Shown: positions 20,337 through 33,047, counted from the first letter of the stretch. The stretch: 64,000 bases of DNA from an uncultured bacterium (GCA_964483695.1 CAZACZ010000002.1:3171-67170); one strand, 5' to 3'. Made by a program: numbers and translations. Notes: generated by a model from the sequence alone, not told the origin.

Positions 20337-20969
20337 TCAGCCAGCGGCGCCCTTCGCCCGCCGCACCTCGTGCAGCAGGAGCCGCGTCACCGCCGCGTGG
20401 CAGGTGGGGCAGGTGCGGTCGGTGCCCAGCACCGGCGCCAGGTCCTCGAAGGTGGTCACGCCGTGGTCGCGGATCGCGCGACGCACGGTGTCGCTGTCCA
20501 GCCGGTGGTGCTCGCACACGTCGTACTGCGGCTTGGCGCGCAGCTTCCAGCGGCCGGGGTCGGCCCGGTACTCGGCGTAGCGCGCCTCCCAGAAGCTGCG
20601 TTCGAACGCCACCATGGCGATCTCGAAGCCGACGGCGTCCGCCGCCAGCGTCTGGCCCGCCGCGACGAGGCGCTCCTCTTCCTCGAGGAACGGCACCTCG
20701 AACGCCACCAGCAGGTCCACGGCGTCGGGCAGCAGCGTGCGCTCGCCCTCCGTGCCCCCGAAGCCGGTGGCGCCGTCCACCGTTCCCGCCAGCGCCCGCA
20801 GCCTCTTCGCCGTCCACGGCGATTCCGGCGCCTCGAGCATCGCGAGCGGCAGCACCAACTCCTTGGCCTCCCGGACCTGGTCCAGGACGGCCTCGATGAA
20901 CGCGCGCTGGGTGCGGATGGCGGCGGTGGCCTCCGCCTGCGCGCCAGGTCGCTCGGCAGCTCCTGGCAT
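20337..20969 (-). CDS. Hydrogenase-cluster-associated hypothetical protein with C-terminal BFD-like (2Fe-2S-type) motif
   Basis: 210-aa ORF. Its ATG overlaps the hypE stop (ATGA at 20967-20971). The C-terminus has C152-x-H154-x32-C187-x2-C190 in a BFD-like context (VRRAIRDHGVTTFEDLAPVLGT..TCPTC). Confidence 0.6.
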   Translation of the reverse strand: MPGAAERPGAQAEATAAIRTQRAFIEAVLDQVREAKELVLPLAMLEAPESPWTAKRLRALAGTVDGATGFGGTEGERTLLPDAVDLLVAFEVPFLEEEERLVAAGQTLAADAVGFEIAMVAFERSFWEARYAEYRADPGRWKLRAKPQYDVCEHHRLDSDTVRRAIRDHGVTTFEDLAPVLGTDRTCPTCHAAVTRLLLHEVRRAKGAAG

Positions 20970-22012
20970 CAGCAGATCCTCGGCAGCTGTTCCTCGATGG
21001 GCATCTCCAGCACCCTCCTGCTGCCGTAGGCGGTCTCGACCAACGCCACCCCCTCGGGCTTCTTCACGATGTCGCCGATGACGGCGGCCTCGCGGCCGAG
21101 CGGGTGCGCCTTCATGGCGCCGAGCGCGGCCTCGGTCTCCTCCGGCGGGACGATCAACAGGACCTTGCCCTCGTTGGCGGCCAGCAGCGGGTCGATGCCG
21201 AGCATCTCGCTGTACTGCGCGACGAGGTCGTGGATCGGAACAGCCACGTCGAACACCCGCAGGCCGAACGGCCGGCGCAGCACCACCTCGTTCGCCACCG
21301 CCGCCAGCCCGCCGCGGGTCACGTCACGCATGAAGCGCACGTTCGGCGCGACCTCCAACACGCGCTCGATCAGGCCGTTCAGCGGCGCCACGTCCGAGAC
21401 GAGATCGACCGAGAGGTCGAGCCCCTCCCGACGCGACATCACCGCGATGCCGTGATCGCCGAGCGTGCCGTTCACCAACACCTTGTCGCCGGGGCGCACG
21501 TGCTCGACGCCGATGCGCACGTGCTCCGGCAAGAACCCGACGCCCGCGGTGGTCACGAAGATGCCGTCGCCCTTGCCGCGCTCGAGCACCTTGGTGTCGC
21601 CCGCCACGATGGCCACGCCGGCCTCGTCGGCGGTCGCTTTCATGGAGCGCACCACCTTCTCGAGCACGGCCATGTCGAAGCCCTCCTCGAGCAGGAACGC
21701 GGCCGTGAGGTAGGCGGGCTTGGCGCCCATCACCGCTAGGTCGTTCACCGTCCCCGCCACCGCCAGGCGACCGATGTCGCCGCCGGGGAAGAACGTCGGC
21801 TTGACGGTGTGCGAGTCGGTGGCGAACGCGATGCGCCCGCCCGGGTTGGCTACGACGGCGGCGTCGGTCAGCTCGCGCAGCGGCGCGCTGCCGAAGGTGG
21901 CCACGAACAGCTCCTCGATCAGCTCGAGGCTGAGCCTGCCGCCCGAACCGTGCGCCAAGCGCACGGTGTCGTAGCGCGAGGCCGGGCCGCTTCGCTCAGA
22001 CGGTCTCGACAT
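20969..22012 (-). CDS. hypE: Hydrogenase maturation protein HypE (carbamoyl dehydratase)
   Basis: AIR-synthase-like sequence ending in the canonical PRIC C-terminus. Start ATG 22012 (MSRPSE). The listed 475-aa ORF is over-extended. Confidence 0.9.
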   Translation of the reverse strand: MSRPSERSGPASRYDTVRLAHGSGGRLSLELIEELFVATFGSAPLRELTDAAVVANPGGRIAFATDSHTVKPTFFPGGDIGRLAVAGTVNDLAVMGAKPAYLTAAFLLEEGFDMAVLEKVVRSMKATADEAGVAIVAGDTKVLERGKGDGIFVTTAGVGFLPEHVRIGVEHVRPGDKVLVNGTLGDHGIAVMSRREGLDLSVDLVSDVAPLNGLIERVLEVAPNVRFMRDVTRGGLAAVANEVVLRRPFGLRVFDVAVPIHDLVAQYSEMLGIDPLLAANEGKVLLIVPPEETEAALGAMKAHPLGREAAVIGDIVKKPEGVALVETAYGSRRVLEMPIEEQLPRIC

Positions 22013-23207
22013 GGAGCCTCTCCTTGTGCATGCCGTAGACGTACCAGGCGCGGCAGGTGCCCTCGTGGCTGACCATGCACGGCCCGTACGGGTTGTCGGG
22101 GGTGCATAGCTTGCCGAACACGCCGCACGCGTCGGGGCGGATCTGCCCGAGGGTGACCTCGGCGCAGCGGCAGCCCTTGGGGTGCTCGGCGCCGCGCAGC
22201 TCGAGCGGATCGAGCTGCCCGGCGAAGCGCCGCGCCGCGCTGAAGCGCTGGTAGGCCGGACGCAGCTTGTACCCCGAGGCGGGGATCTCGGCGATCCCGC
22301 GCCAGCGGATCGGTGCGAGCTCGAACACCTCGTCCAGCTCCTGCTTGGCGCGCTCGTTGCCGTCGTAGCGCACCAGCCGGCCGTAGGGGTTGGCAACGGT
22401 GGGCGCGTCAGCCGCGATCTGCTCCAGCAGCGACAGCACCCCCGCCATCACGTCCACCGGCTCGAAGCCGCCAGAAGCGCACGCGATCCCGCGCCTCGCT
22501 AGGTGCTCGTACACCCGCAGGCCGGTGATGGTGGCGGCGTGCCCAGGCAGCAGGAACCCCTCGATGTCGAAGCCGTCCAGGTCGGGCAGCAAGCTGGTGG
22601 CGGGCGGGGTGTAGTAGTTCGCCTCGATGATGCTGAAGTTCTCCGGCGCACCGCGCTTGAGGAGCGCCGCCACCGCCACCACCGTGGTCTCGAAGCCGAC
22701 CGAGAAGAACACCACCTGCCGTTCGGGGTGGTGCTCGGCCAAGCGCTTGGCGTCGAACACGCTGTACACCGCGCGCACGTCGCCGCCTTGGGCGCGAGCG
22801 TCGAGCAGGCTCATGCGCACGTCGCCGCGCCGTTCGCCCTTCAAGGGGATGCTTCCGGGCACCGCCAGCATGTCGCCGAACGACGCCAGCGTCACGCCGG
22901 GCACGAGCGACAGCTGGATCGCCATGTTGATGTACTCGTTGTCGCACACGCACACCGGGCAGCCGGGGCCCGCCAGGACGCTCACGCTGGACGGCAGCAG
23001 GTCGCGGAGCGCGAAGCGGCCGATCTCGTGCTCGTGCGTCCCGCAGATGTGCATCAGCTTCACCGGCCGCCCGATCTCGGCCGCCACGGCGGCGATCTTC
23101 CGCTGCAGCACTGCCACCAAGCTGGGGTCGCGGTAGGTGTCGGGGCGGTAGCTGTCGGGGCGGTACGACCCGGCGGTCACGGCGCGGACGTCCGCCTCGT
23201 CAGCCAC
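21996..23207 (-). CDS. hypD: Hydrogenase maturation protein HypD
   Basis: Motifs HICGTHEHE, GPGCPVCV and FETT identify HypD. Start tentatively at GTG 23207, overlapping the hypC stop; the ORF is open up to 23264. Confidence 0.85.
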   Translation of the reverse strand: MADEADVRAVTAGSYRPDSYRPDTYRDPSLVAVLQRKIAAVAAEIGRPVKLMHICGTHEHEIGRFALRDLLPSSVSVLAGPGCPVCVCDNEYINMAIQLSLVPGVTLASFGDMLAVPGSIPLKGERRGDVRMSLLDARAQGGDVRAVYSVFDAKRLAEHHPERQVVFFSVGFETTVVAVAALLKRGAPENFSIIEANYYTPPATSLLPDLDGFDIEGFLLPGHAATITGLRVYEHLARRGIACASGGFEPVDVMAGVLSLLEQIAADAPTVANPYGRLVRYDGNERAKQELDEVFELAPIRWRGIAEIPASGYKLRPAYQRFSAARRFAGQLDPLELRGAEHPKGCRCAEVTLGQIRPDACGVFGKLCTPDNPYGPCMVSHEGTCRAWYVYGMHKERLHVETV

Positions 23208-23430
23208 GGGTCTCCGGCTCCAGGTACTCGGCGATGAGCCGTAGGTTCGCCGCCGCTTCTGCACGCTCGATCTTGGCGATCGCGAACCCGGCGTGGACCA
23301 CCACCCAGTCGCCCGGCTTCAGGTCTTCCACCAAGCCGATGAAGCAGTGCTGCGTGCCGTTCCCGAGCCGGATCAGGCAGCTGTCCTGGCTCAGGACGTC
23401 GACGACCTCGTGGGGGATGCCTAGGCACAT
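23200..23430 (-). CDS. hypC: Hydrogenase maturation chaperone HypC/HupF family
   Basis: Starts MCLGIP (essential Cys2). About 76 aa with an OB-fold-like sequence. Confidence 0.85.
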   Translation of the reverse strand: MCLGIPHEVVDVLSQDSCLIRLGNGTQHCFIGLVEDLKPGDWVVVHAGFAIAKIERAEAAANLRLIAEYLEPETRG

Positions 23431-23560
23431 GGGCGCGCTCCCTCGCATGCAGCGGCGGGCCGGGTGGGCCCCTGCGGGCCTCGTCCCCGGTCCTTCGATG
23501 CGTCATGGTGGGCTTCTGCGCCGCAACGCGGCCAGTGCCGAATGTCCTCGCGACCGGCGC

Positions 23561-24301
23561 TCAGCCCGCGCTCGCCGCCAAGCCGGCCGCCTTCTCGCGC
23601 CGGCGATCGCGCAAGTACGCGAGCCACGCGTCAACGCCGTTGCCGGTGCGCGCCGAGAGTTCGAAGACGGTGGCGCCGGGCGCCACCTTGCGCACGTTGT
23701 CGAGCGCGCGCTCGCGGTCGAAGCCGACGGCCTCGGCGATGTCGATCTTGTTGATCACCACGGCGTCGGCGTCCTTGAAGATGCGCGGGTACTTGATGGG
23801 CTTGTCCTCACCCTCGGTGACCGACATCATCGTGACGCGCAGGTCCTCGCCCAAGTCCCAAGCAGCTGGGCACACCAGGTTCCCGACGTTCTCGATCACC
23901 AGCACGTCGAGCCCGGCAAGGTCGAGCTGCTCGACCGCGCGAGCGACCATCTCGGCCTCTAGGTGGCACACCGCGCCGGTGGCGATCTGCACCGACGGCG
24001 CGCCGGCGGCGTTGAGGCGCACCGCGTCGTTGTCGGTCTCGAGGTCGCCCACCACTACTGCCAGCGCCAGCTCGGGCGAGAGCGCACGCACCGTGCGCTC
24101 GAGCAAGGCGGTCTTGCCGGAGCCAGGTGCCGACACCACGTTCAGCACCAGGCACCCGGCGAACGCATCGCGGTTCTGCTTGGCGACCTCGTCGTTGAAC
24201 ACCATCAACGACTTCTGCACTTGCACGACCCGCGCGCCAGGCGCGGCGCCGGTGCCGTGCGGGCTAACGCGTACGTCGCGGGTGGTCGGGTCGGTGGGCA
24301 T
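23561..24301 (-). CDS. hypB: Hydrogenase nickel-incorporation GTPase HypB
   Basis: P-loop SAPGSGKT, metal-site VCHLEA, ENVGNLVCP and NKID motifs. The ATG overlaps the hypA stop (ATGA at 24299-24303). No His-rich or CxxCGC N-terminus. Confidence 0.9.
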   Translation of the reverse strand: MPTDPTTRDVRVSPHGTGAAPGARVVQVQKSLMVFNDEVAKQNRDAFAGCLVLNVVSAPGSGKTALLERTVRALSPELALAVVVGDLETDNDAVRLNAAGAPSVQIATGAVCHLEAEMVARAVEQLDLAGLDVLVIENVGNLVCPAAWDLGEDLRVTMMSVTEGEDKPIKYPRIFKDADAVVINKIDIAEAVGFDRERALDNVRKVAPGATVFELSARTGNGVDAWLAYLRDRRREKAAGLAASAG

Positions 24302-24648
24302 CACGTCACCTCCAGGTGGCTCACGTGCATCTCGCGTCCTTGCCGCAGGTCGGCCGACGGCGTGCCGCAGGTCGGGCACAGGGCGATCCCGAAGCGGTTG
24401 TCGAGTTCGAACGCCGCCTCGCACGTTCGACAGTACGCGATGGCCGGCAGGTACGTCACGTCGAGTCGAGCATGCTCCGCCATGGTGCCTTCGCGCGCGG
24501 CGCCGAAGGCGAACTCGAGCGCTTCCGGCACGACCCCGGCCAGCGCGCCGATCTCGAGGTGGATGGCGTCGATGCGCGACGCGCCGTCCTGGCGCGCCGC
24601 GTCTTCGGCAACGCGCAGCATGCTCAGCACCAGGCTCAGTTCATGCAC
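24301..24648 (-). CDS. hypA: Hydrogenase nickel-insertion protein HypA
   Basis: MHE N-terminus and zinc motifs CRTC...CPTCG. 115 aa. Confidence 0.9.
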   Translation of the reverse strand: MHELSLVLSMLRVAEDAARQDGASRIDAIHLEIGALAGVVPEALEFAFGAAREGTMAEHARLDVTYLPAIAYCRTCEAAFELDNRFGIALCPTCGTPSADLRQGREMHVSHLEVT

Positions 24649-25198
24649 GCCCCAGCACCAACTCCTCGGCGTCCAGCACGTCCTCGGCGCGCACGTCGTG
24701 ACGCACCGAGACGGGCACGGCGCCGTGCCGTTCGAGTTCGGCCAGGACCACGCGCGCGAGCGCCTCCATGCGCCCGCGCACGGCGTCGCCGAGGATCACC
24801 CCGACCTCGCCGGTCTCGAACTGGAGCGGGGCCACGCCGATGGCGACGATCGTCACCTCCGGTAGGTCGCCGTGCAGCTCCATGGCGGTGAGCAGGTCCG
24901 GCACCTCCCACTCGTGCGACGACAGCTTGCCGTACCCCACCTCGGCCGGCACGTGCTTGCGGTCGAAGCGGTACACCTTCCCCGGCGGAGCGGCCACGGC
25001 GTCGACCAACACGACATGATCGTACGCGGCGATGAGGTCGAGCAGGTGCCAGCCGAGGGTGCCGCCGTCGACGAGGTCGACGTGCTCCGGGAACACGTAC
25101 TTCTTGCGCAGGTAGTGCACCAGATGCACGCCCGCTCCTTCGTCCCCGTAGTAGACGTTGCCGACACCCAGGACGAGGAGCGGGCGCGCTTCGCTCAC
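24641..25198 (-). CDS. Hydrogenase maturation endopeptidase (HyaD/HupD-like) for the group-1 enzyme
   Basis: LVLGVGNVYYGDEGAGVH...DGGT...H motifs. The GTG start overlaps the cytochrome b stop (GTGA at 25195-25198). Confidence 0.8.
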   Translation of the reverse strand: MSEARPLLVLGVGNVYYGDEGAGVHLVHYLRKKYVFPEHVDLVDGGTLGWHLLDLIAAYDHVVLVDAVAAPPGKVYRFDRKHVPAEVGYGKLSSHEWEVPDLLTAMELHGDLPEVTIVAIGVAPLQFETGEVGVILGDAVRGRMEALARVVLAELERHGAVPVSVRHDVRAEDVLDAEELVLGRA

Positions 25199-26001
25199 GA
25201 CGCCGTGCCCTTCTTGGTGCCCAGGTCTTCCAGCTCCGCCGGGCGGGCGGCCACGTCGTCGGCGCGGAACCCCGACACCATCGACTCGACCAGCATGTTG
25301 CCGGAGCGGAGGCTGTTCCACACCACCATGTAGAGGTGGATGCCGGTGAAGACCACGAACCACAGCATGGTGAAGCGGTGGATGGCGCGCACGTTGGCGA
25401 GGCCGCCGAGCCACACCTCGATGGGGCGCAGCAGGTTGGCGCCGACGTCGGCCAGGCCGCCGTGCACGTACGGTGACGCCAGCAGGATGCCGGTGACGCT
25501 GATGACCAGCAGCGAAGCGTAGAGCGCGGTGTAGGTCAGGTACTGCAGCGGTCCGTAGTTGCTGTAGGTGAAGTGCGGGTGCTCGCGCTTGAGGAGCAGG
25601 TAGAACCCCAGCTGGTCGCGCCAGGCGCGCCAGTTGAAGAGGATGGGGAACATCCGGACTTCACGCCCCAGCCCCAGCCGGCCGTCGGCGCGCACGAACA
25701 GGAACTGGTAGATGCGCGCCAAGGTGAAGGCCAGCAGCACCCAACCGGCGGCGACGTGCCACCCGCGCACCTGCGCCATGACGAAGTTCGCAGACGTCTC
25801 GGTGAGCAGGTTGCGCGCTAGGAACGGGTTGCCGATGTAGATGCCGGACAGCACCATCCAGATCAGCACGAGGTTGCGGATCCAGTGCGCGATGCGCACG
25901 TAGCGGCCGAAGACGTACACCACCATCTTGGGGCGCCCCGGGCGCTCGAGCACGACCGCGCGCACGCGCCGCGTCCGGCTGGTCTCGGTGGTCACGGTCA
26001 C
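25195..26001 (-). CDS. Ni/Fe-hydrogenase b-type cytochrome subunit (HyaC/HupC-like)
   Basis: Four TM helices with conserved His (RIAHWI, RGWHVAAGW, AIHRF, GIHLY). The GTG start overlaps the large-subunit stop (GTGA at 25998-26001). Confidence 0.8.
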   Translation of the reverse strand: MTVTTETSRTRRVRAVVLERPGRPKMVVYVFGRYVRIAHWIRNLVLIWMVLSGIYIGNPFLARNLLTETSANFVMAQVRGWHVAAGWVLLAFTLARIYQFLFVRADGRLGLGREVRMFPILFNWRAWRDQLGFYLLLKREHPHFTYSNYGPLQYLTYTALYASLLVISVTGILLASPYVHGGLADVGANLLRPIEVWLGGLANVRAIHRFTMLWFVVFTGIHLYMVVWNSLRSGNMLVESMVSGFRADDVAARPAELEDLGTKKGTAS

Positions 26002-27686
26002 ACCTCCACTTCGTGCTGCGCGATCTCCTGCCCGTCGCGGTTGAGCACGTGCACGGCGCACGCCAGGCACGGGTCGAAGGAGTGGATGGTGCGCACCACC
26101 TCGAGCGGGCGGGTCGGGTCGGCCATCGGCTGCCCGACGAGCGACGCCTCGTACGCGCCGCGTTGCTCGCGCGCGTCCTTGGGTCCGGCGTTCCAGGTGG
26201 TCGGCACGATCGCCTGGTAGTTGGCCACGAACCCGCCCTTGACCGTCAGCCAATGGCTGAGGCTGCCGCGCGGCGCTTCGCCCATCGCCCAGCCCTCGCC
26301 GTCCTTGGCGGTGTAGCGGTGGAAGAAGCGGTCGTCGCCGCCCGCCACGCTGCTGGTGAGCTGGCCGATGAGCGTGGGGATGTAGTCACCGACGAGCTTC
26401 GACTCGAGCCCGCGGGCCACGGTGCGGCCTAGGGTGGAGTACCAGAACTCGAACGGGACGCCGAGCTTCTCGGTGTAGCCGTCCATCAGGGTGCGCACGC
26501 GCTCGTTGCCGCCGGCGTACGCCACCAGGAACCGCGCAAGCGGGCCCACCTCGACCGGCATGCCGTCGTAGCGCGGCGCCTTGACCCAGCTGTAGCCGCC
26601 CTCGGTCTTGAGCGTGCCGTCGGCGGCGAACCCTTCGTACGCGGGGTTGGTCTGGCCCTGCAGCGGGTGGAGCGAGGTGGCGCCGCCCTCGTAGGTGTAC
26701 CAGGAGTGCGCGACCTCTTCGCCGATCTTCATCGGATCGACGGGATGCGCCTTGCTCATGTCCCGGTCGATCACCAGGCCGGGCTGCAGCAGGAAGCTGC
26801 TCTGTTCCCACGGCAACTCGTCGAGCGCCATCGCCCCGAAGCTCATGTAGTTGCGCACGCCGGCGCCGTGGCCGGCCAGCGCCTCGTCGCGGTAGCGCCG
26901 CCCGAGCAGCTCGAGGTCGGGCAGGTAGGCGCGCTCCACGAAGTCCATCGTCTTCGCCATCAGGAACTGGTACTCGGCGATGCGGTGCGCGTCGAGCGCG
27001 TCGCGTGCGGCCGTCACGCCCCCCACCACGAGGCTCTGCGGGTGCGGGTTCTTGCCGCCGAAGACGGCGGTCGCCTTGGCGCTGAGGCGCTGGATGGCGA
27101 GGTTGTCGAGGTAGTGCGACGCGAGGATGAGGTTCTCCTCGGGCGTCAGCAGGTACTTCGGGTGGCCCCAGTAGCCGCCCGCGAACGGGCCGAGCTGGCC
27201 GCTCTGCGCGAACGCGCTCAGGCGCTCGAGCACGCCGCGGTAGTGGCTCTCCGAGGCGTTGTAGGCCTGGTCGTGGTACTGCAGCGCGATCTCGGTGGCG
27301 AGGACGGGGTCGGCGCCGAGGGCGCTGATGACGTCCCACCAGTCCATCGAGTGCAGTTGGTAGAAGTGCACGGTGTGGTCGTTGACGTACTGCGCCGCCC
27401 AGATGAGGTTGCGCAGCAGGCGCGCGTTCGGTGGGATGGTCACGCCGTAGGCGCGTTCGGTGGCTTGCACGCCGCGTTCGTAGTGGTGGTAGGTGCACAC
27501 GCCGCAGATGCGCTGGGCGAACAGGCCGACGTCGCGCGGATCGCGCCCTTGCATGATCTTCTCGAAGCCGCGGAAGGCGGTGCTGCTGCTCGAGGCCTCC
27601 TCGACCAGGCCGTCATCGCCGACCTCGATCTCGATCCGCAGGTGCCCCTCGATGCGCGTGATGGGGTCGATCACGTGTTTGGCCAC
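25998..27686 (-). CDS. [NiFe]-hydrogenase large subunit, group 1 (membrane-bound H2-uptake type)
   Basis: PITRIEGH, RICGVCTYHH and C-terminal HSFDPCLACAVH followed by a 15-residue cleavable tail. It is colinear with my recollection of E. coli HyaB. Confidence 0.92.
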   Translation of the reverse strand: MAKHVIDPITRIEGHLRIEIEVGDDGLVEEASSSSTAFRGFEKIMQGRDPRDVGLFAQRICGVCTYHHYERGVQATERAYGVTIPPNARLLRNLIWAAQYVNDHTVHFYQLHSMDWWDVISALGADPVLATEIALQYHDQAYNASESHYRGVLERLSAFAQSGQLGPFAGGYWGHPKYLLTPEENLILASHYLDNLAIQRLSAKATAVFGGKNPHPQSLVVGGVTAARDALDAHRIAEYQFLMAKTMDFVERAYLPDLELLGRRYRDEALAGHGAGVRNYMSFGAMALDELPWEQSSFLLQPGLVIDRDMSKAHPVDPMKIGEEVAHSWYTYEGGATSLHPLQGQTNPAYEGFAADGTLKTEGGYSWVKAPRYDGMPVEVGPLARFLVAYAGGNERVRTLMDGYTEKLGVPFEFWYSTLGRTVARGLESKLVGDYIPTLIGQLTSSVAGGDDRFFHRYTAKDGEGWAMGEAPRGSLSHWLTVKGGFVANYQAIVPTTWNAGPKDAREQRGAYEASLVGQPMADPTRPLEVVRTIHSFDPCLACAVHVLNRDGQEIAQHEVEV

Positions 27687-27689
27687 GGC

Positions 27690-28943
27690 CTACTCCGCCT
27701 CCTGCCCTTTGGCGCTTCGCTGCTCGGTCGCGCTCTTGACGGCCGTCACGCCGGCGTGCGCCACCACGCCCACTGCCGCCGCTCCCAGCGCCACGCGGCC
27801 GATCTTGTCGGCGGTGGCGTCGGTGAAGAACGGCGTCGGGTAGACGCGCCCTGCGAGCGGCACCTCGAACGGGGTGAGCACGTCCCAGAAGCCCGGCTCG
27901 CTGCAGCCGATGCAGCCGTGGCCGGACATGATCGGCCAGGAGGCGCCGTCGTTGTAGCGCACCACGCCGCAGTTGTTGTGCGTCATGGGGCCCTTGCAGC
28001 CGACCTTGAACAGGCACAGCCCTTCCTTCATGCCCTCGATGTCGGTCCAGCCCTCCACGAACTCGCCGGCGTCGAAGTGCCCCCGCCGTTCGCACTTGTC
28101 GTGGATGCGGTCGGCGTACGCCCACAGCGGCCGGCCGAAGGCGTCGAGCGACGGCAGCCGGCCGAACATGGCGTACTCGAGGATGGTGCCGACCACGTTG
28201 GTGCTCGACACCGGGCAGGCGGGCAAGTTGATGACGGGCTTGTGGATGCCGCGGTTGCGCAGGAAGTCGCCGACACCGAGCGCCGTGGTCGGGTTGGGAC
28301 GGGCGGCGGGGATGCCGCCGTAGGACGCGCAACTGCCCGCGGCGATGACGGCGGCGGCGTGCCGGGCGACGTGCTCGACCCGGCTCGCGCCGGTCTCGCC
28401 GGACGGCCCGATGGTGAGGAAGCGCCCGTCGTTGCCTACCGGCACCGAGCCCTCGAACACCGCGATGTACTGGCCGTCGTAGCGATCGATCGATGCCTGC
28501 AGGACGTCCTCGGCCGCCTGGCCCGATGGCGCCATCAGCACCTCGGCGTACTCCAGGCTGAGCAGTTCGAGCACGATGTCGTCGATGCCGGGGTTGGCGT
28601 TGCGGATCAACGCCATGCTGTTGCCGGTGCACGACTGCAGTTCGAGCCACAGGACCGGCAAGCGCGTCGCCAGTTCCTGCGCGCGCGCGACGCGCAGGTC
28701 GAACATCGGCGGCAGCGCCAGCGTCGTGGTCAACACCGCCGACATCTTCAAGAAGTCGCGCCGCGAGATGCCGCGGCGCCTGAGCAGACCCTCGAGGGTG
28801 ATGTCCTTGAGCGGCGGTCTGGCCTCCAGCCGGTCGAGGTGGGCGTCGGCTTCGGCAGCCAGGCGCTCGTAGGATTCGCGTAGGGCACGGTCCAGCGGCG
28901 CGGACGTCGCTTGGGCCGGTGGGTACCTGCGCTGACGAGACAT
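27690..28943 (-). CDS. [NiFe]-hydrogenase small subunit, group 1, Tat-exported with C-terminal membrane anchor
   Basis: The ATG is preceded by GAGGAGG. It has the SRRDFLK twin-arginine motif, Fe-S ligand motifs (SCTGN, GSCAS, ACP, RIHDKC, GLC, VGC, NNC, HGCIGC) and a hydrophobic C-terminal helix. Confidence 0.9.
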   Translation of the reverse strand: MSRQRRYPPAQATSAPLDRALRESYERLAAEADAHLDRLEARPPLKDITLEGLLRRRGISRRDFLKMSAVLTTTLALPPMFDLRVARAQELATRLPVLWLELQSCTGNSMALIRNANPGIDDIVLELLSLEYAEVLMAPSGQAAEDVLQASIDRYDGQYIAVFEGSVPVGNDGRFLTIGPSGETGASRVEHVARHAAAVIAAGSCASYGGIPAARPNPTTALGVGDFLRNRGIHKPVINLPACPVSSTNVVGTILEYAMFGRLPSLDAFGRPLWAYADRIHDKCERRGHFDAGEFVEGWTDIEGMKEGLCLFKVGCKGPMTHNNCGVVRYNDGASWPIMSGHGCIGCSEPGFWDVLTPFEVPLAGRVYPTPFFTDATADKIGRVALGAAAVGVVAHAGVTAVKSATEQRSAKGQEAE

Positions 28944-29130: not shown

Positions 29131-29988
29131 TCACCGACCGCACGGGGCATCCGTCCCGGTCGTCCGCTGGCGGCGCCGGACGCCGCTCCGCAGACCGCCG
29201 AGGCCGTCCGCCACCAGGTTGATGCCGAGGACCGCCAGCGCGATGGCTGCGCCCGGGAACACCGACAACCACCACGCGCGGCGCACGAACGCCTGCGCGT
29301 TGTTCAACAGGTACCCCCAACTGATCCGGTTCGGGTCGCCGAAGCCGAGGAAGGCAAGGCTCGCTTCGAGCAGCATGGCGTTCCCTACCAGGAGCGCCGC
29401 GTAGGCGAGCGCCGGAGCCGCCACGTTGGGGAGCAGGTGCCGGGCAACTACCCTGCGCCCGCGCGCGCCGAGGGCGCGGGCGGCGAGCGCGTACTCCTGT
29501 TCCTTGGCGGCCAGCACGCCGGCCCGCGTGACGCGCGCGATGACCCCCCAACTCGTCACCGCCAGGACGACGATCACGAGCCCGAGGCGGGCGCCGAACA
29601 GCGCCATCACGACCAGCGCAAGGAAGAAGCGCGGGATCACGAGCACGAACTCGGTCGCGCGCATCAGGGCGTCGTCGACGAAGCCTCCGAACCAACCAGC
29701 CAGCGCCCCGACCGCGAGTCCCAGGACCAGCGAGAAGGTCGCCACGGCGCCGCCCACCAGCAACGACACGCGCGCACCATGCACCACGGCCCGCCACACG
29801 TCGCGCCCCAGGTCGTCGGTGCCGAACGGGTACGCGGGCGATGGCGGCTGGAACGGCGGTCCGACCGACTGGAACGGATCGCCCGGCGCCACCGTCCCCG
29901 CCAGCAGCGCGACGGCAACGAAGCACGCCGTCACCACTCCGCCGATCACGAGGGACGGGGGAAGGCGCCCACGTCGGGGGCTAGGCAT
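29131..29988 (-). CDS. ABC transporter permease (DppC/OppC/NikC-like)
   Basis: Family-5-type permease with an EAA-like loop (AARALGA...RHLLPN). The ATG overlaps the upstream permease stop by 8 nt. Confidence 0.8.
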   Translation of the reverse strand: MPSPRRGRLPPSLVIGGVVTACFVAVALLAGTVAPGDPFQSVGPPFQPPSPAYPFGTDDLGRDVWRAVVHGARVSLLVGGAVATFSLVLGLAVGALAGWFGGFVDDALMRATEFVLVIPRFFLALVVMALFGARLGLVIVVLAVTSWGVIARVTRAGVLAAKEQEYALAARALGARGRRVVARHLLPNVAAPALAYAALLVGNAMLLEASLAFLGFGDPNRISWGYLLNNAQAFVRRAWWLSVFPGAAIALAVLGINLVADGLGGLRSGVRRRQRTTGTDAPCGR

Positions 29989-30943
29989 ACCGGATCCGCG
30001 GGTCGAGGACGGCGTAGAGCAGGTCGACGACGACCGTCGACGCCACGACCGCGGCCGTGACGAGCAGGAAGGTGCTGCTGATGACGGGAAGGTCTCGCGC
30101 CAGCATGGCACTCATCAGCAGGCGCCCCATGCCGGGCCAGGCGAAGACCGTCTCCGTGAGCACCGCGCCCGAGACCATGAACGCTACCTGGGTGCCGATC
30201 ACGGTAACGACCGGCAGGGCGGCGTTGCGCAGGGCATGGCGCCACAGAACGCGCCGACGCGGAAGCCCCTTCGCTACGGCCGTGCGCACGTACTCTCGCT
30301 GCAACGCATCGACCAGGCCGGCCCGCGCCACCCGTGCGACGGGGGCCAAGTACTGCACCGTCAACGCCGTCACCGGCAACACCATGTGACGAGCCACGTC
30401 CAGCACGCCGGCCAGCCCTTCCGCGCCGGCGCGCACGTCACGCATCCCCTGAACGGGGAACAGCGGCAGTTGGTACGCGAAGACGAGCATCAAGAGCTGC
30501 GCGAGCCAGAAGACCGGCACGGCTTGGCCGAGCAACGCTGCTGCGCTCAGCAGCATGTCGCCCGTGGAGTGGGGGCGCACCGCGGCCGCGACGCCCAGCG
30601 CCAAGCCGACCAGGATCGCCAGGCCCAACGCCGGCGCGATCAGCAGCAGCGTCGCCGGAAGCCGCTCCACCACCGCCGCGAGGGCGGGTTGCTGCAACCG
30701 GTACGAGTAGCCCAGGTCGCCTCGCGCGGCGCGCATCAGGAAGATCGCCAGCCGATCGCCGAGAGGCCGATCGAGTCCGAACCGCTCGCGCACCATCTGG
30801 TACGTGGCGGCGTCGCCGTCTTCGCCCACCAACGCCAGGACGGGGTCACCCGGGGCGATCTCTACCAACAGGAACGTGGCGACCAGGACCGCCAGCACCA
30901 GCGGAAGCGTCTGCCATGCACGGCGTGCCGCGTACCGAAGCAC
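29981..30943 (-). CDS. ABC transporter permease (DppB/OppB/NikB-like)
   Basis: MLRYAARR...LVEIAPGDP is a typical DppB-type N-terminus, with YVRTAVAKGL in the EAA loop. Confidence 0.8.
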   Translation of the reverse strand: MLRYAARRAWQTLPLVLAVLVATFLLVEIAPGDPVLALVGEDGDAATYQMVRERFGLDRPLGDRLAIFLMRAARGDLGYSYRLQQPALAAVVERLPATLLLIAPALGLAILVGLALGVAAAVRPHSTGDMLLSAAALLGQAVPVFWLAQLLMLVFAYQLPLFPVQGMRDVRAGAEGLAGVLDVARHMVLPVTALTVQYLAPVARVARAGLVDALQREYVRTAVAKGLPRRRVLWRHALRNAALPVVTVIGTQVAFMVSGAVLTETVFAWPGMGRLLMSAMLARDLPVISSTFLLVTAAVVASTVVVDLLYAVLDPRIRYA

Positions 30944-30961
30944 TGCCGCCTCCCAAACCCG

Positions 30962-32527
30962 TCAGCGGGCCAGCCAGGCGCGCTCGGCCAAGGCGCCGCG
31001 CCACGGCTCGAGCCCCCGGACCTGGGCCCGGTACGCCGTCGCCATCCGCGTCTCGACCAGCCAGAGGTACGGCGCGTCCGCCACGAGGATCTGTTGGGCG
31101 CGGCGGTAGAGCGCGGCGCGCGCCGTGGGGTCGGCTTGCTCGGCCGCTTGCCCGAACAGAAGATCGATCTCCGGGTTGGCGTACGCCGCGGCGTTCGAGA
31201 ACGGCACGTTGCCGATGTTGCTGGAGACGACGGTGCGCGCCACGCCGATCGACGGATCGGTGTTGTTGCAGTAGCTGATGATGGCGGTGTCGAAGTCGCG
31301 GCGCTCGAAGACGCGAGTGACGAACGCGCTTCGGTCGAGCGCGACGAGCTCGAGGCGTACGCCTACGCGGGCGAACTGCTGCCGTAGCACCTCGCCGTAC
31401 TTGGCGAACGTCGGGAAGTGCAGGAACGTCGCCTCGAAGCGCACGCCGTCCGCGCCACGGGGGTACCCCGCCTGGTCCAGCAGCGTCTCGCTGAGCTCGG
31501 GATCGTAGGCGGCGATGGGCACGTCGTCGCTGTATGCCGACGCGAGCTGGCTGCTGATCGGTCCCGTCGCGACCTGGCCGTTGCCGAAGAGCACTTGCTC
31601 GAGGAGTTGCCCGCGATCGACGGCGTGGGCCAAGGCTTGCCGAACCTGCACGTCCTGGAACCGCGAGCGTTCGAGGTTGAACGCCAGCGTCATCACGCAG
31701 AAGCCGCCACCCGGGCCGCTGTTGGTGGTCTGAACGCCCAACTCGGGATCGCTCGCCAGGCGCTCGAGTTCGCTTCCGGGCACGCCGGTGACGACGTCGA
31801 TCTCGCCTCTCTCGAGCGCCAGCAGCCGCGTGTTCGCGTCGGGGATGGCCCGGAAGACGAGCCGATCGAGGTACGGAAGCTCGGGCTGGAAGTAGCCCGC
31901 GAAACGCTCGAGCACCACCATGTCGTCGGGCACGTAGTCGACGAAGCGGAACGGCCCGGTGCCGACGGGATGGAGGTTCTCCGGGGCCTGCTGGAGGTCG
32001 GGCACGCGTGCGTACACGTGCTGCGGCAGGATCGGCGCTTCGGTGACGTCCAGGCGTTGCAGCAGCGCCGCGTACGGTTGCCGGAAGCGGAACACCACGG
32101 TGTGCTCGTCCGGCGTGTCGATGGCGTCGAGCAGCGCCTCGAGCCCGCCGCGCGTACGGGCGTGGTAGAGCAGCAGCGCGTGCTCGAAGGTGAACTTGAC
32201 GTCGGCAGCGGTGAACGGGGCGCCGTCGTGCCAGAGCACGCCCTCGCGCAAGTGGAAGGTGTACGTCCGCGCGTCCGGACTCACCTCCCAGCGGACCGCC
32301 AGGTCGGGAAGCGGCGCCGCGCGATCGTCGAGCCGGACGAGGCCGCTGAAGATCGAGTCGGCCACCGCGTGGACGGCGCCGTCGGTGGTGATGGCCGGGT
32401 TCAGGTGGCCCGGAAGCTGCTCGATGCCGACGACCAGCGTTCCGCCGCGCTGCGGCGCCGACTGCGCAAGCGCGACCCCGTACGGCAAGGTGCACACCCC
32501 GAGTGCCAGCGCCAGCTGCAACCACAT
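30962..32527 (-). CDS. ABC transporter substrate-binding protein, family 5 (peptide/nickel type)
   Basis: Signal peptide MWLQLALALGVCTLPYGVALAQS, then GGTLVVG...L.P and other SBP_bac_5-like sequence. Start ATG 32527 is preferred over 32566. Confidence 0.75.
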   Translation of the reverse strand: MWLQLALALGVCTLPYGVALAQSAPQRGGTLVVGIEQLPGHLNPAITTDGAVHAVADSIFSGLVRLDDRAAPLPDLAVRWEVSPDARTYTFHLREGVLWHDGAPFTAADVKFTFEHALLLYHARTRGGLEALLDAIDTPDEHTVVFRFRQPYAALLQRLDVTEAPILPQHVYARVPDLQQAPENLHPVGTGPFRFVDYVPDDMVVLERFAGYFQPELPYLDRLVFRAIPDANTRLLALERGEIDVVTGVPGSELERLASDPELGVQTTNSGPGGGFCVMTLAFNLERSRFQDVQVRQALAHAVDRGQLLEQVLFGNGQVATGPISSQLASAYSDDVPIAAYDPELSETLLDQAGYPRGADGVRFEATFLHFPTFAKYGEVLRQQFARVGVRLELVALDRSAFVTRVFERRDFDTAIISYCNNTDPSIGVARTVVSSNIGNVPFSNAAAYANPEIDLLFGQAAEQADPTARAALYRRAQQILVADAPYLWLVETRMATAYRAQVRGLEPWRGALAERAWLAR

Positions 32528-32837
32528 GGAGCGGCCGGGTCTGGGCAGGTGCCAAGGACAACGCATCTCTATTCGCCTCCCGAGGGAGCACGGCGACCGG
32601 CCGCGCCTGCGCCCACGCTAGGGGGCGGCTCGAGCGGCCGTCAGAGGCATTCGCCCCCTTCCCGTCTACGCGAGCCAGCAGCGCCACGCGGGCGACGGGC
32701 CGCCACGGGCGTTCGAGATGTGCCGTGCGCGACGCGCTTCACGGCTGGGACGTATGCCTCTGCAGCGGGCAGCCGCCGTCCCGGTAGCGTCGTATCGACT
32801 GTTCCCGAGTCGTGCCGGTCCGCAAGACGCCCGCGGA

Positions 32838-32862
32838 AGGCGCGACCGAGAGGCGCGACCGA
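32838..32862. promoter_or_regulatory. Tandem direct repeat AGGCGCGACCGA x2 (13-nt period) in the long leader upstream of the molybdoenzyme gene
   Basis: Exact 12-mers at 32838-32849 and 32851-32862, read from the sequence. The function is inferred only. Confidence 0.3.
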
Positions 32863-33047
32863 CAGGCGCAAGCCTCTCCGGGGCCCGTCGGGCAACCGGC
32901 CGGCCTGCCACCTTGCGAAGGGACGGACGCGACCCGGACGTCGCGTCGTTCTCCGAGAGGGGGCCGTATCGAGGAACCGCAACGACCTTCCCCGCCGCAG
33001 CACCCGACCGCCTATCGCACCACCACCATCCCCAGAACGGAGACACC

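What the first reader, a model, noticed from the sequence alone, without database searches (positions are those of the whole stretch)
28620..28631. Group-1 hydrogenase small subunit has C-T-G-N where the proximal Fe-S cluster needs C-x-x-C
The minus-strand translation reads LPVLWLELQSCTGNSMALIRN.

- It aligns position for position with the E. coli Hyd-1 segment WIHGLECTCCTESFIRS and with the standard ECTGCSES pattern (both recalled from memory).
- The first ligand Cys is present (TGC, 28629-28631).
- The second ligand position is AAC = Asn (28620-28622). That is two nucleotide changes away from any Cys codon.
- The other proximal ligands (GSCAS, LPACP) are present.
- All seven medial and distal ligands (RIHDKC, GLC, VGC, NNC, HGC, IGC) are present.
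- The two extra Cys of O2-tolerant 1d enzymes are absent.

As I recall, altered proximal-cluster ligation is the hallmark of O2-insensitive or high-affinity lineages: an Asp ligand in actinobacterial type 1h, and 3Fe clusters in Huc-type 2a. Yet this enzyme otherwise looks like a classical Tat-exported, cytochrome-b-linked group-1 enzyme. It may therefore have an unusual 3Cys+Asn or 3Fe proximal cluster.
Basis: partly seen in the sequence, partly recalled or inferred. Interest (0 to 1): 0.8.

Follow-up and report, generated by a model that had tools for sequence, protein, structure and literature searches.

The report
Hydrogenase with asparagine iron-sulfur ligand
A hydrogen-oxidising enzyme of a Trueperaceae bacterium really has asparagine where one of four cysteines normally holds its first iron-sulfur cluster, but this is a known, recurrent natural variant, not a new kind of enzyme.

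Summary
On the minus strand, 28631-28620 reads TGC ACC GGC AAC (C-T-G-N). A gap-free alignment to solved structures puts Asn108 on proximal-cluster ligand Cys20. All other Fe-S ligands are present and the two extra Cys of 1d enzymes are absent.

The Asn is not an error. The AAC codon is identical in 8 independent assemblies, and Asn is invariant in all 80 clade members aligned at this column (58-100% identity; Trueperaceae, Meiothermus).

It is not new chemistry. Cys-to-Asn or Asp at this position is documented for group 2a (Nostoc HupS), group 1f (Roseiflexus, Geobacter, Frankia) and Methylacidimicrobium. HucS reads CSGN, and its 1.52 A structure shows a [3Fe-4S] proximal cluster. About 27% of diverse small subunits carry N, D or E here.

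What I add:
- Large-subunit phylogeny places the enzyme on the prototypical 1b side, sister to Sulfobacillus-type C-D-G-N enzymes. Its nearest outgroups have CTGC. Asn therefore arose here separately from the 1f-like radiation.
- N/D/E at this column never co-occurs with the Pro two residues after the third ligand (0 of 102, against 53 of 84 for Cys).

Best mechanism: a three-Cys, Huc-like [3Fe-4S] proximal cluster (about 0.55). The rival is [4Fe-4S] with Asn or solvent on the fourth iron. Interest is modest.

The parts
28620..28631 (-). C-T-G-N: Cys105 (TGC, first proximal ligand) to Asn108 (AAC, in place of ligand Cys20 in R. eutropha / E. coli Hyd-1 numbering)
27690..28943 (-). [NiFe]-hydrogenase small subunit, 417 aa. 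It has a long pre-Tat N-terminal extension and a C-terminal membrane helix with a conserved His.
   Evidence: Pfam Oxidored_q6 + NiFe_hyd_SSU_C + TAT_signal. 100% identical to P0001. PDB alignment.
28710..28769 (-). Twin-arginine signal motif (RRRGISRRDFLK...), residues 59-78
   Evidence: Pfam PF10518, 23.5 bits against a cut-off of 22.7
28215..28331 (-). Remaining proximal-cluster ligands: Cys205 (28329-28331) and Cys243 (28215-28217)
   Evidence: conserved-column analysis
28209..28211 (-). Val245, at the position of Pro151 (C149-P-P151) in CTGC-type enzymes. Pro here never co-occurs with Asn, Asp or Glu at column 20.
27903..28103 (-). Canonical distal ligands (His281, Cys284, Cys310, Cys316) and medial ligands (Cys325, Cys344, Cys347)
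25998..27686 (-). [NiFe]-hydrogenase large subunit, 562 aa. It has RICGVC and DPCLACAVH motifs, a C-terminal extension for protease cleavage, and His215, the equivalent of the D. vulgaris MF His235 that contacts the proximal cluster.
   Evidence: Pfam NiFeSe_Hases, E 2e-190. PDB alignment.
25195..26001 (-). Cytochrome b subunit (HupC/HyaC type). The start is either GTG 26001 or ATG 25926.
   Evidence: Pfam Ni_hydr_CYTB. Start positions.
24641..25198 (-). Large-subunit maturation endopeptidase (HupD/HyaD/HycI family)
   Evidence: Pfam HycI. Start.
20969..24648 (-). Maturation genes: hypA (24301-24648), hypB (23561-24424, start uncertain), hypC (23200-23448), hypD (21996-23264, start uncertain), hypE (20969-22003)
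   Evidence: Pfam HypA, cobW, HupF_HypC, HypD. AIRS/AIRS_C.

Best explanation
What it is (shown). This is a functional respiratory uptake [NiFe]-hydrogenase operon of a Trueperaceae (Deinococcota) bacterium. The gene order is small subunit, large subunit, cytochrome b, maturation protease, then hypABCDE. The small subunit is Tat-exported and membrane-anchored.

The electron relay (shown).
- The distal site is canonical: His plus three Cys, expected to hold [4Fe-4S].
- The medial site is canonical: three Cys, expected to hold [3Fe-4S].
- The proximal site has only three Cys (105, 205, 243), plus a clade-invariant Asn108 where the fourth ligand, Cys20, normally sits.
- This is the same Cys-to-Asn or Asp variant already catalogued in groups 2a and 1f and in Methylacidimicrobium.

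How it works (inferred).
- By analogy with Huc, which has the same C-x-G-N motif and was solved at 1.52 A, the three Cys hold a [3Fe-4S] cluster. Asn fills the space of the missing iron and its ligand rather than binding iron.
- The relay would then be 3Fe / 3Fe / 4Fe.
- A higher-potential proximal cluster should bias the enzyme toward H2 oxidation and feed electrons through cytochrome b to the quinone pool of an aerobe.
- Loss of the Pro two residues after Cys243 (Val245 here) is part of the same pocket remodelling.

Confidence. About 0.95 that this is a real, selected, already documented type of variant in a working uptake hydrogenase. About 0.55 that the cluster is specifically [3Fe-4S]. 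The confidence field gives the latter.
For: Real and selected:
- The AAC codon is identical in 8 independent assemblies.
- Asn is invariant in all 80 clade members aligned at this column, down to 58% identity.
- In diverged relatives both synonymous codons are used at this column: Asn AAC 39 / AAT 8, Asp GAC 13 / GAT 11.

Intact enzyme:
- Pfam finds the small and large subunits, cytochrome b, the protease and HypA-E.
- The large-subunit Ni-Fe motifs and His215 are conserved.

Documented variant:
- Literature.
- Roseiflexus has CAGN, and Geobacter and Geomonas have CTGD, in the same column.

Precedent for [3Fe-4S]:
- HucS (PDB 7utd_B) reads ...GGACSGNTMSF.
- Huc's three clusters were assigned as [3Fe-4S] from 1.52 A maps and EPR.
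- There is no compensating Cys anywhere in either subunit.

Pocket remodelling:
- Substitutions E16S, C20N, Q122P, P151V and others cluster around the proximal site.
- Pro151 is present in 0 of 102 N/D/E sequences, against 53 of 84 Cys sequences.
Against: - No group-1 Asn enzyme has been characterised spectroscopically or structurally, as far as I could find.
- Wild-type Nostoc HupS has the same C-x-x-N motif and was interpreted as having a [4Fe-4S] proximal cluster that becomes [3Fe-4S] only after a C12P mutation (review cited).
- Huc is a distant cytosolic group 2a enzyme in which all three clusters are unusual, so its proximal pocket need not predict this one.
- In group 1h a non-Cys ligand (Asp) does bind a [4Fe-4S] cluster.
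- The Pro151 association is not corrected for phylogeny.
- I could not inspect side-chain geometry, because the structure tools return no coordinates.
Confidence: 0.55

Rival explanations
1. The proximal cluster is a [4Fe-4S] cubane. Its fourth iron is held by the Asn108 side chain (amide O or N) or by water or hydroxide positioned by Asn. This would parallel the 3Cys+Asp cluster of group 1h enzymes.
For: - Nostoc HupS, with the same C-x-x-N motif, was interpreted as having a [4Fe-4S] proximal cluster.
- Yonemoto 2014 lists the N. punctiforme cluster as 'Proximal (4Fe4S)', and the engineered C81N and C81D variants of A. macleodii HynS retained activity.
- Group 1h uses Asp on a [4Fe-4S] cluster.
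- Asn and Asp interchange freely at this column in the 1f-like radiation (47 N, 24 D). That fits a ligating role shared by both residues.
Against: - The only high-resolution structure of a C-x-G-N small subunit (Huc) shows [3Fe-4S].
- A neutral amide is a poor iron ligand (general coordination chemistry; my own knowledge).
- The Nostoc assignment came from spectroscopy, with no structure behind it.
Confidence: 0.35
2. Another residue, not aligned with Cys20, supplies the fourth ligand, and Asn108 is a bystander. Candidates are a nearby Ser, Asp or His of the small subunit, or a large-subunit residue such as His215.
For: - Several pocket residues changed together with C20N: E16S, Q122P, P151V.
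- The large-subunit His that contacts the proximal cluster is conserved.
Against: - No new conserved Cys or His column appears in the clade relative to CTGC enzymes.
- The co-varying residues (Ser, Pro, Val, Ala, Tyr) are mostly non-ligating.
- The Asn itself is invariant, which would be unexpected for a bystander.
Confidence: 0.05
3. The Asn codon is a sequencing or assembly error, or the gene is a decaying pseudogene.
For: None found.
Against: - The codon is identical in 8 assemblies from different runs.
- Asn is invariant across all 80 clade members aligned at this column.
- The ORFs and the complete maturation operon are intact.
Confidence: 0.01

Closest known systems
Sulfobacillus / 'Ca. 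Hydrogenisulfobacillus filiaventi' HynAB (labelled HydDB group 1b in Hogendoorn 2023)
   Same: - It is the sister lineage: large-subunit bootstrap 99, small-subunit bootstrap 82.
- It has Asn at the same column (C-D-G-N).
- It has cytochrome b, the same operon order and a long N-terminal extension.
- Its host is an aerobic H2 oxidiser.
   Different: - It is only about 50-53% identical.
- It has Asp instead of Thr after the first Cys.
- That paper reports no Tat signal and does not mention the Asn. The window protein has a Pfam-detected Tat motif.
Prototypical group 1b/1e periplasmic hydrogenases (D. vulgaris Miyazaki F, A. vinosum; Campylobacterota HydAB)
   Same: - They are the best solved-structure matches of the large subunit (1h2a_L E 2e-155; 3myr_B).
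- They fall on the same side of the bootstrap-100 split in the large-subunit tree.
- Close 1b-like relatives share the S-L-cytb-protease-hyp operon.
   Different: - They have the canonical four-Cys proximal site (E-C-T-G-C) followed by C-P-P.
- The window enzyme has Q-S-C-T-G-N and C-P-V.
HydDB group 1f hydrogenases (Roseiflexus, Geobacter Hya, Frankia synton-3)
   Same: - They have Cys20 replaced by Asn or Asp in the same column.
- They are cytochrome-b-type group-1 enzymes.
- Subunit sizes match: HupS 410-420 aa and HupL about 573 aa in Frankia, against 417 and 562 aa here.
- They also lack Pro151.
   Different: - Small-subunit identity is 42-50%.
- Their large subunits are separated from the window's at bootstrap 100.
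- Pocket motifs differ: Q-D-C-A-G-N and often G-S-C-A-F/W-D-G-G.
- The Asn here is best explained as a separate origin.
Group 2a Huc (M. smegmatis) and cyanobacterial HupS
   Same: - They have the same C-x-G-N motif; HucS reads CSGNTMSF.
- The Met two residues after the Asn is shared with the Trueperaceae subclade (CTGNSMAL).
- Huc is the only structural precedent, and its proximal cluster is [3Fe-4S].
   Different: - Huc has no cytochrome b and reduces menaquinone directly; its medial and distal clusters are also [3Fe-4S]. That it is cytosolic with no Tat signal rests on my own knowledge.
- The matches are very distant: small subunit E about 1e-24, large subunit about 1e-53.
O2-tolerant group 1d MBH (R. 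eutropha HoxKG, E. coli Hyd-1)
   Same: - They are the best solved-structure matches of the small subunit (E 3e-87).
- They are Tat-exported, cytochrome-b-linked and membrane-anchored.
   Different: - They have a six-Cys [4Fe-3S] proximal cluster.
- The window enzyme has Gly at both supernumerary positions and lacks Cys20 itself.

Membership tests
Group 1 membrane-bound respiratory uptake [NiFe]-hydrogenase | Large subunit with N- and C-terminal CxxC Ni-Fe motifs and a cleavable C-terminal extension | tested here: met
   RICGVC and DPCLACAVH plus a tail; Pfam NiFeSe_Hases E 2e-190. A HycI-family protease gene is present.
Group 1 membrane-bound respiratory uptake [NiFe]-hydrogenase | Small subunit with a twin-arginine signal | tested here: met
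   RRRGISRRDFLK; Pfam TAT_signal 23.5 bits against a cut-off of 22.7
Group 1 membrane-bound respiratory uptake [NiFe]-hydrogenase | Cytochrome b partner encoded downstream | tested here: met
   Pfam Ni_hydr_CYTB, E 5e-25
Group 1 membrane-bound respiratory uptake [NiFe]-hydrogenase | Three Fe-S clusters with 4 (proximal) + 3 (medial) + 4 (distal) protein ligands | tested here: not met
   The medial and distal sets are complete. The proximal set has 3 Cys plus Asn108. The same deviation is known within group 1.
HydDB group 1b (prototypical) | Large-subunit phylogenetic affiliation (HydDB classifier) | tested here: inconclusive
   The HydDB classifier is not available here. In my NJ tree the window's large subunit groups with D. 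vulgaris MF and with the enzyme that the literature labels 1b, at bootstrap 99-100 and apart from the 1f-like set. No 1c, 1d or 1e large-subunit references were in that tree.
HydDB group 1b (prototypical) | Four-Cys [4Fe-4S] proximal cluster | tested here: not met
   Asn108 replaces Cys20
HydDB group 1f | Large-subunit clustering with Roseiflexus, Geobacter or Acidobacteriota-type enzymes | tested here: not met
   The split is at bootstrap 100 in the large-subunit tree. The small-subunit tree is unresolved, with bootstrap at most 27.
HydDB group 1f | Cys-to-Asn or Asp at the second proximal ligand | tested here: met
   Same column as Roseiflexus CAGN and Geobacter CTGD. Literature.
HydDB group 1d (O2-tolerant MBH) | Supernumerary Cys19 and Cys120 forming a [4Fe-3S] cluster | tested here: not met
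   Gly at both positions
HydDB group 2a (Huc / cyanobacterial HupSL) | Cytosolic enzyme without a Tat signal or cytochrome b; non-His distal ligand | tested here: not met
   A Tat motif, cytochrome b and distal His281 are all present. Only the C-x-G-N motif is shared.

The most novel reading that the evidence does not exclude
The Deinococcota plus Bacillota (Sulfobacillus-type) lineage is an independent origin of Cys20-to-Asn inside otherwise prototypical, periplasmic, cytochrome-b-linked 1b-type hydrogenases of aerobes. The change converts the proximal cluster to a Huc-like high-potential [3Fe-4S], giving a 3Fe/3Fe/4Fe relay, and is coupled to loss of Pro151. That would be a route to aerobic respiratory H2 oxidation distinct from the six-Cys [4Fe-3S] cluster of 1d enzymes and from the Asp-ligated cluster of 1h enzymes. 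It would also show that evolution has repeatedly used the same two-residue pocket change.
Probability: 0.3. Interest if true: 0.55.

Novelty: new member of a known kind. Interest (0 to 1): 0.3.

Why it matters
The proximal Fe-S cluster sets the catalytic bias and the oxygen behaviour of [NiFe]-hydrogenases. The Cys-to-Asn variant is common in sequence databases. It has been resolved structurally only in the very different Huc enzyme, and the spectroscopic reading of Nostoc HupS disagrees with that structure.

A Tat-exported, cytochrome-b-linked enzyme that is otherwise textbook would be a clean system for settling what C-x-G-N does. It has cultivable relatives in Meiothermus and Sulfobacillus, and CTGC sister enzymes for comparison. 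It could also test whether the coupled loss of Pro151 is required.

As a genome-scan finding, though, it is a known type of variation, not a discovery of new chemistry.

Tried and rejected
- Sequencing error or pseudogene: rejected.
- A compensating Cys elsewhere: none in either subunit.
- Membership of group 1f: considered first, because of the subunit sizes and the Asn. Rejected on the large-subunit tree.
- Greening et al. 2016, the primary source for ligand tables, is not held. I relied on papers that cite it.
- A short-fragment PDB search did not bring up the Huc or 1h alignments. A 2a-style bait peptide then retrieved HucS.
- P0178 was tried as a group 1h proxy. It is [NiFeSe]/1a-like and carries C-T-G-D, so I did not verify the 1h column myself.
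- Organism names for the Asn-bearing representatives: the cluster look-ups gave none. The CMGN protein P0457 is from Deltaproteobacteria MAGs, not Methylacidimicrobium.
- The supplement of Mohammadi 2016 holds no retrievable motif. My last homologue search did not surface Methylacidimicrobium. Its relation to this lineage is therefore untested.
- Structure prediction was not run, because the tool returns no coordinates and could not show side-chain-to-cluster geometry.
- A first MAFFT --auto run timed out and was repeated with faster settings.

Full report
**Observation.** The minus strand at 28700-28560 encodes ...LPVLWLELQSCTGNSMALIRN.... The gene is 27690-28943 (minus strand) and encodes a 417-aa protein. 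It is 100% identical to the database protein P0001. Within it, Cys105 is TGC at 28629-28631 and Asn108 is AAC at 28620-28622. Pfam finds Oxidored_q6, NiFe_hyd_SSU_C and a twin-arginine signal. phmmer against all PDB chains gives R. eutropha HoxK and E. coli Hyd-1 small subunits as the best matches (E 3e-87). The alignment has no gap over residues 91-192 and puts Asn108 on ligand Cys20. The other ligands are present:
- proximal: Cys205 and Cys243;
- distal: His281, Cys284, Cys310 and Cys316;
- medial: Cys325, Cys344 and Cys347.

Positions 19 and 120, which are the extra Cys of 1d enzymes, are both Gly. Neither subunit has a spare Cys. Every factual element of the finding is therefore correct.

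**Not an error.** The exact protein occurs on 18 contigs. In eight assemblies from eight different sequencing runs the gene differs from the window at 0-2 of 1254 nt, and the codon block TGCACCGGCAACAGC is identical in all of them. Among the 120 best homologues, all 80 members of the clade aligned at this column (58-100% identity; Trueperaceae MAGs and Meiothermus cerbereus) carry Q-S-C-[TSA]-G-N, while neighbouring residues vary. A second group (Sulfobacillus, 'Ca. Hydrogenisulfobacillus', Bacillota MAGs) has C-D-G-N. The next relatives, Campylobacterota and others, have E-C-T-G-C.

**Context.** The operon on the minus strand runs in this order:

| Gene | Coordinates |
|---|---|
| small subunit | 27690-28943 |
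| large subunit (562 aa) | 25998-27686 |
| cytochrome b | 25195-26001 |
| HycI-family protease | 24641-25198 |
| hypA | 24301-24648 |
| hypB | 23561-24424 |
| hypC | 23200-23448 |
| hypD | 21996-23264 |
| hypE | 20969-22003 |

The large subunit has intact Ni-Fe motifs and His215. His215 is the equivalent of the D. vulgaris MF His235 that contacts the proximal cluster. This is a complete uptake-hydrogenase locus with every sign of being functional.

**Already documented.**
- Mohammadi et al. 2016 state that HupS of the mesophilic verrucomicrobial methanotrophs has one of the four proximal Cys replaced by Asn. They say the same change, to Asn or Asp, occurs in group 1f enzymes of Roseiflexus, Geobacter and Frankia, and that Asn is also found in group 2a.
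- Yonemoto et al. 2014 tabulate 'Proximal, position 2, Cys to Asn' for N. punctiforme and 'Cys to Asp' for G. metallireducens as recurrent natural variants. They found that engineered C81N and C81D enzymes are active.
- I checked that the column is the same. HucS (PDB 7utd_B) reads GGACSGNTMSF.
- In 80 named GTDB genomes retrieved with an alignment of Asn/Asp-type small subunits, the column is Asn in 47, Asp in 24 and Cys in 9. Roseiflexus has CAGN, and Geobacter and Geomonas have CTGD.
- Across 50%-identity representatives of the whole family the column is Cys 86, Asn 22, Asp 9 and Glu 3.
- Both synonymous codons occur at the conserved Asn and Asp.

**Where the window's enzyme sits.**
- The small-subunit NJ tree supports the Deinococcota clade at bootstrap 99 and its union with the Sulfobacillus type at 82. 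Deeper nodes are unresolved.
- The large-subunit tree is decisive for one question. The nesting runs Deinococcota clade (100), then Bacillota/Hydrogenisulfobacillus (99), then a set of 557-aa large subunits (100), then D. vulgaris MF (100). This whole side is split from all 1f-like large subunits at bootstrap 100.
- The Hydrogenisulfobacillus enzyme is labelled HydDB group 1b in the literature. That paper does not mention the Asn.
- The small subunits partnered with two of the intermediate 557-aa large subunits have ECTGC and C-P-P. The Bacillota sister has DCDGN and C-P-A. All share the window's operon order and the long pre-Tat extension.
- New neighbours of the Sulfobacillus-type small subunit are CTGC in 43 of 45 cases.
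- The most parsimonious reading is that Cys-to-Asn arose in the ancestor of the Deinococcota plus Bacillota lineage, within a Cys-bearing 1b-like group and independently of the 1f-like radiation. Its independence from group 2a is inferred from that group's great sequence distance, since no 2a sequence was in either tree.
- The tree lacked 1c, 1d and 1e large-subunit references, and the HydDB classifier could not be run. The subgroup label therefore stays provisional.

**Pocket remodelling.** Compared with the CTGC set, the clade differs consistently at positions that cluster around the proximal site in R. eutropha numbering: L15Q, E16S, C20N, I/W112A, F/W118Y, Q122P and P151V. Across 186 diverse small subunits, Pro151 (C149-P-P151) is present in 53 of 84 Cys20 sequences and in 0 of 102 Asn/Asp/Glu20 sequences. 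Fisher p is about 8e-25, not corrected for phylogeny. The loss is seen both in the 1f-like radiation and in the separately derived Deinococcota/Bacillota lineage, so it looks like a coupled change. I found no mention of this in the papers I read.

**Mechanism.** It is shown that only three Cys are available. The cluster type is inferred.
- The one high-resolution structure with C-x-G-N is Huc. Its proximal cluster is [3Fe-4S], supported by density and EPR.
- Wild-type Nostoc HupS, with the same motif, was interpreted as [4Fe-4S].
- In group 1h, Asp does ligate a [4Fe-4S] cluster.
- I favour a Huc-like [3Fe-4S] proximal cluster at about 0.55. This would give a 3Fe/3Fe/4Fe relay with a raised proximal potential, biased toward H2 oxidation into cytochrome b and the quinone pool of an aerobe.
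- The main rival, at about 0.35, is a [4Fe-4S] cluster with Asn or solvent on the fourth iron.

**Oxygen tolerance.** The suggested link between altered ligation and O2 insensitivity is not general. The Asn-bearing Methylacidimicrobium enzyme works only below 40 uM O2. The Asp form dominates in anaerobic Desulfuromonadales, Thermodesulfovibrionales and Syntrophales. The Hydrogenisulfobacillus enzyme is expressed at all tested O2 levels, with no sign of O2 sensitivity. Whether Methylacidimicrobium belongs to the window's lineage could not be tested.

**Verdict.** The window provides a new member of that kind: a Deinococcota lineage with an apparently independent origin of the Asn inside 1b-type enzymes. 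The one small new observation is the coupled loss of Pro151. Interest is modest (0.3). It would rise if spectroscopy showed a Huc-like [3Fe-4S] proximal cluster in a classical periplasmic respiratory hydrogenase.

Noticed in passing
window 29131-32566 (-): A family-5 solute-binding protein (30962-32566) and two BPD_transp_1 permeases (29981-30943 and 29131-30111) lie directly upstream of the hydrogenase small subunit on the same strand. The two permeases are syntenic in independent assemblies of the same organism (L081-L085, L088). This may be a Nik-type nickel importer serving the hydrogenase, but substrate specificity was not tested and no ATPase genes were looked for.
   Followed up: partly
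window 32718-35468 (+): A 916-aa molybdopterin oxidoreductase (Molybdopterin_N, Molybdopterin and Molydop_binding domains), with an RR-containing N-terminal region, is divergently oriented from the ABC transporter and hydrogenase block. It may be a respiratory partner. Substrate unknown.
   Followed up: no
window 28209-28211 (-) (Val245); alignment of 186 small subunits: Pro at C149-P-P151 never co-occurs with Asn, Asp or Glu at ligand column 20 (0 of 102, against 53 of 84 for Cys). The loss appears in both the 1f-like radiation and the separately derived Deinococcota/Bacillota lineage. This suggests a structurally coupled two-site change. It is not corrected for phylogeny.
   Followed up: partly
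window 28614-28616 (-) (Met110); HucS PDB 7utd_B: The Trueperaceae subclade has Met two residues after the Asn (CTGNSMAL), as does HucS (CSGNTMSF). Meiothermus, the Sulfobacillus type, the 1f-like enzymes and the CTGC enzymes mostly keep Glu there. This may be a second convergence with group 2a.
   Followed up: partly
L001-L080: In the 1f-like radiation, Asp at column 20 is concentrated in anaerobic lineages (Desulfuromonadales, Geobacteraceae, Thermodesulfovibrionales, Syntrophales, Dissulfurispiraceae). Asn dominates in Acidobacteriota, Chloroflexia, Limnocylindrales, Acidimicrobiia, Gemmatimonadota and Vicinamibacteria. Nine genomes (for example L016, L046, L059, L073, L080) have Cys there, nested among Asn or Asp relatives. 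Lifestyle was judged from record titles only.
   Followed up: partly
window 28770-28943 (-); L089-L091: The small subunit has a roughly 55-residue extension before the twin-arginine motif (...ESYERLAAEADAHLDRLE...). It is conserved across the clade and has a counterpart in the CTGC-type 1b-like relatives (for example MRRKEIRNYYHTLMKKCDDHLEQMDK...). Its function is unknown.
   Followed up: no
P0121, P0132 (representatives): Some Asn-type small subunits are much longer (600-809 aa). The hydrogenase domain sits at the C-terminus (for example residues 470-795 of P0121), so there is an N-terminal fusion partner or a mis-called start.
   Followed up: no
P0178, P0184, P0203, P0457: Further separate lineages carry Asp or Asn at the same column. 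One is [NiFeSe]/1a-like with C-T-G-D-F-M-S-F. Another is from Deltaproteobacteria MAGs with C-M-G-N. The substitution therefore recurs even more widely than the literature I read states.
   Followed up: partly
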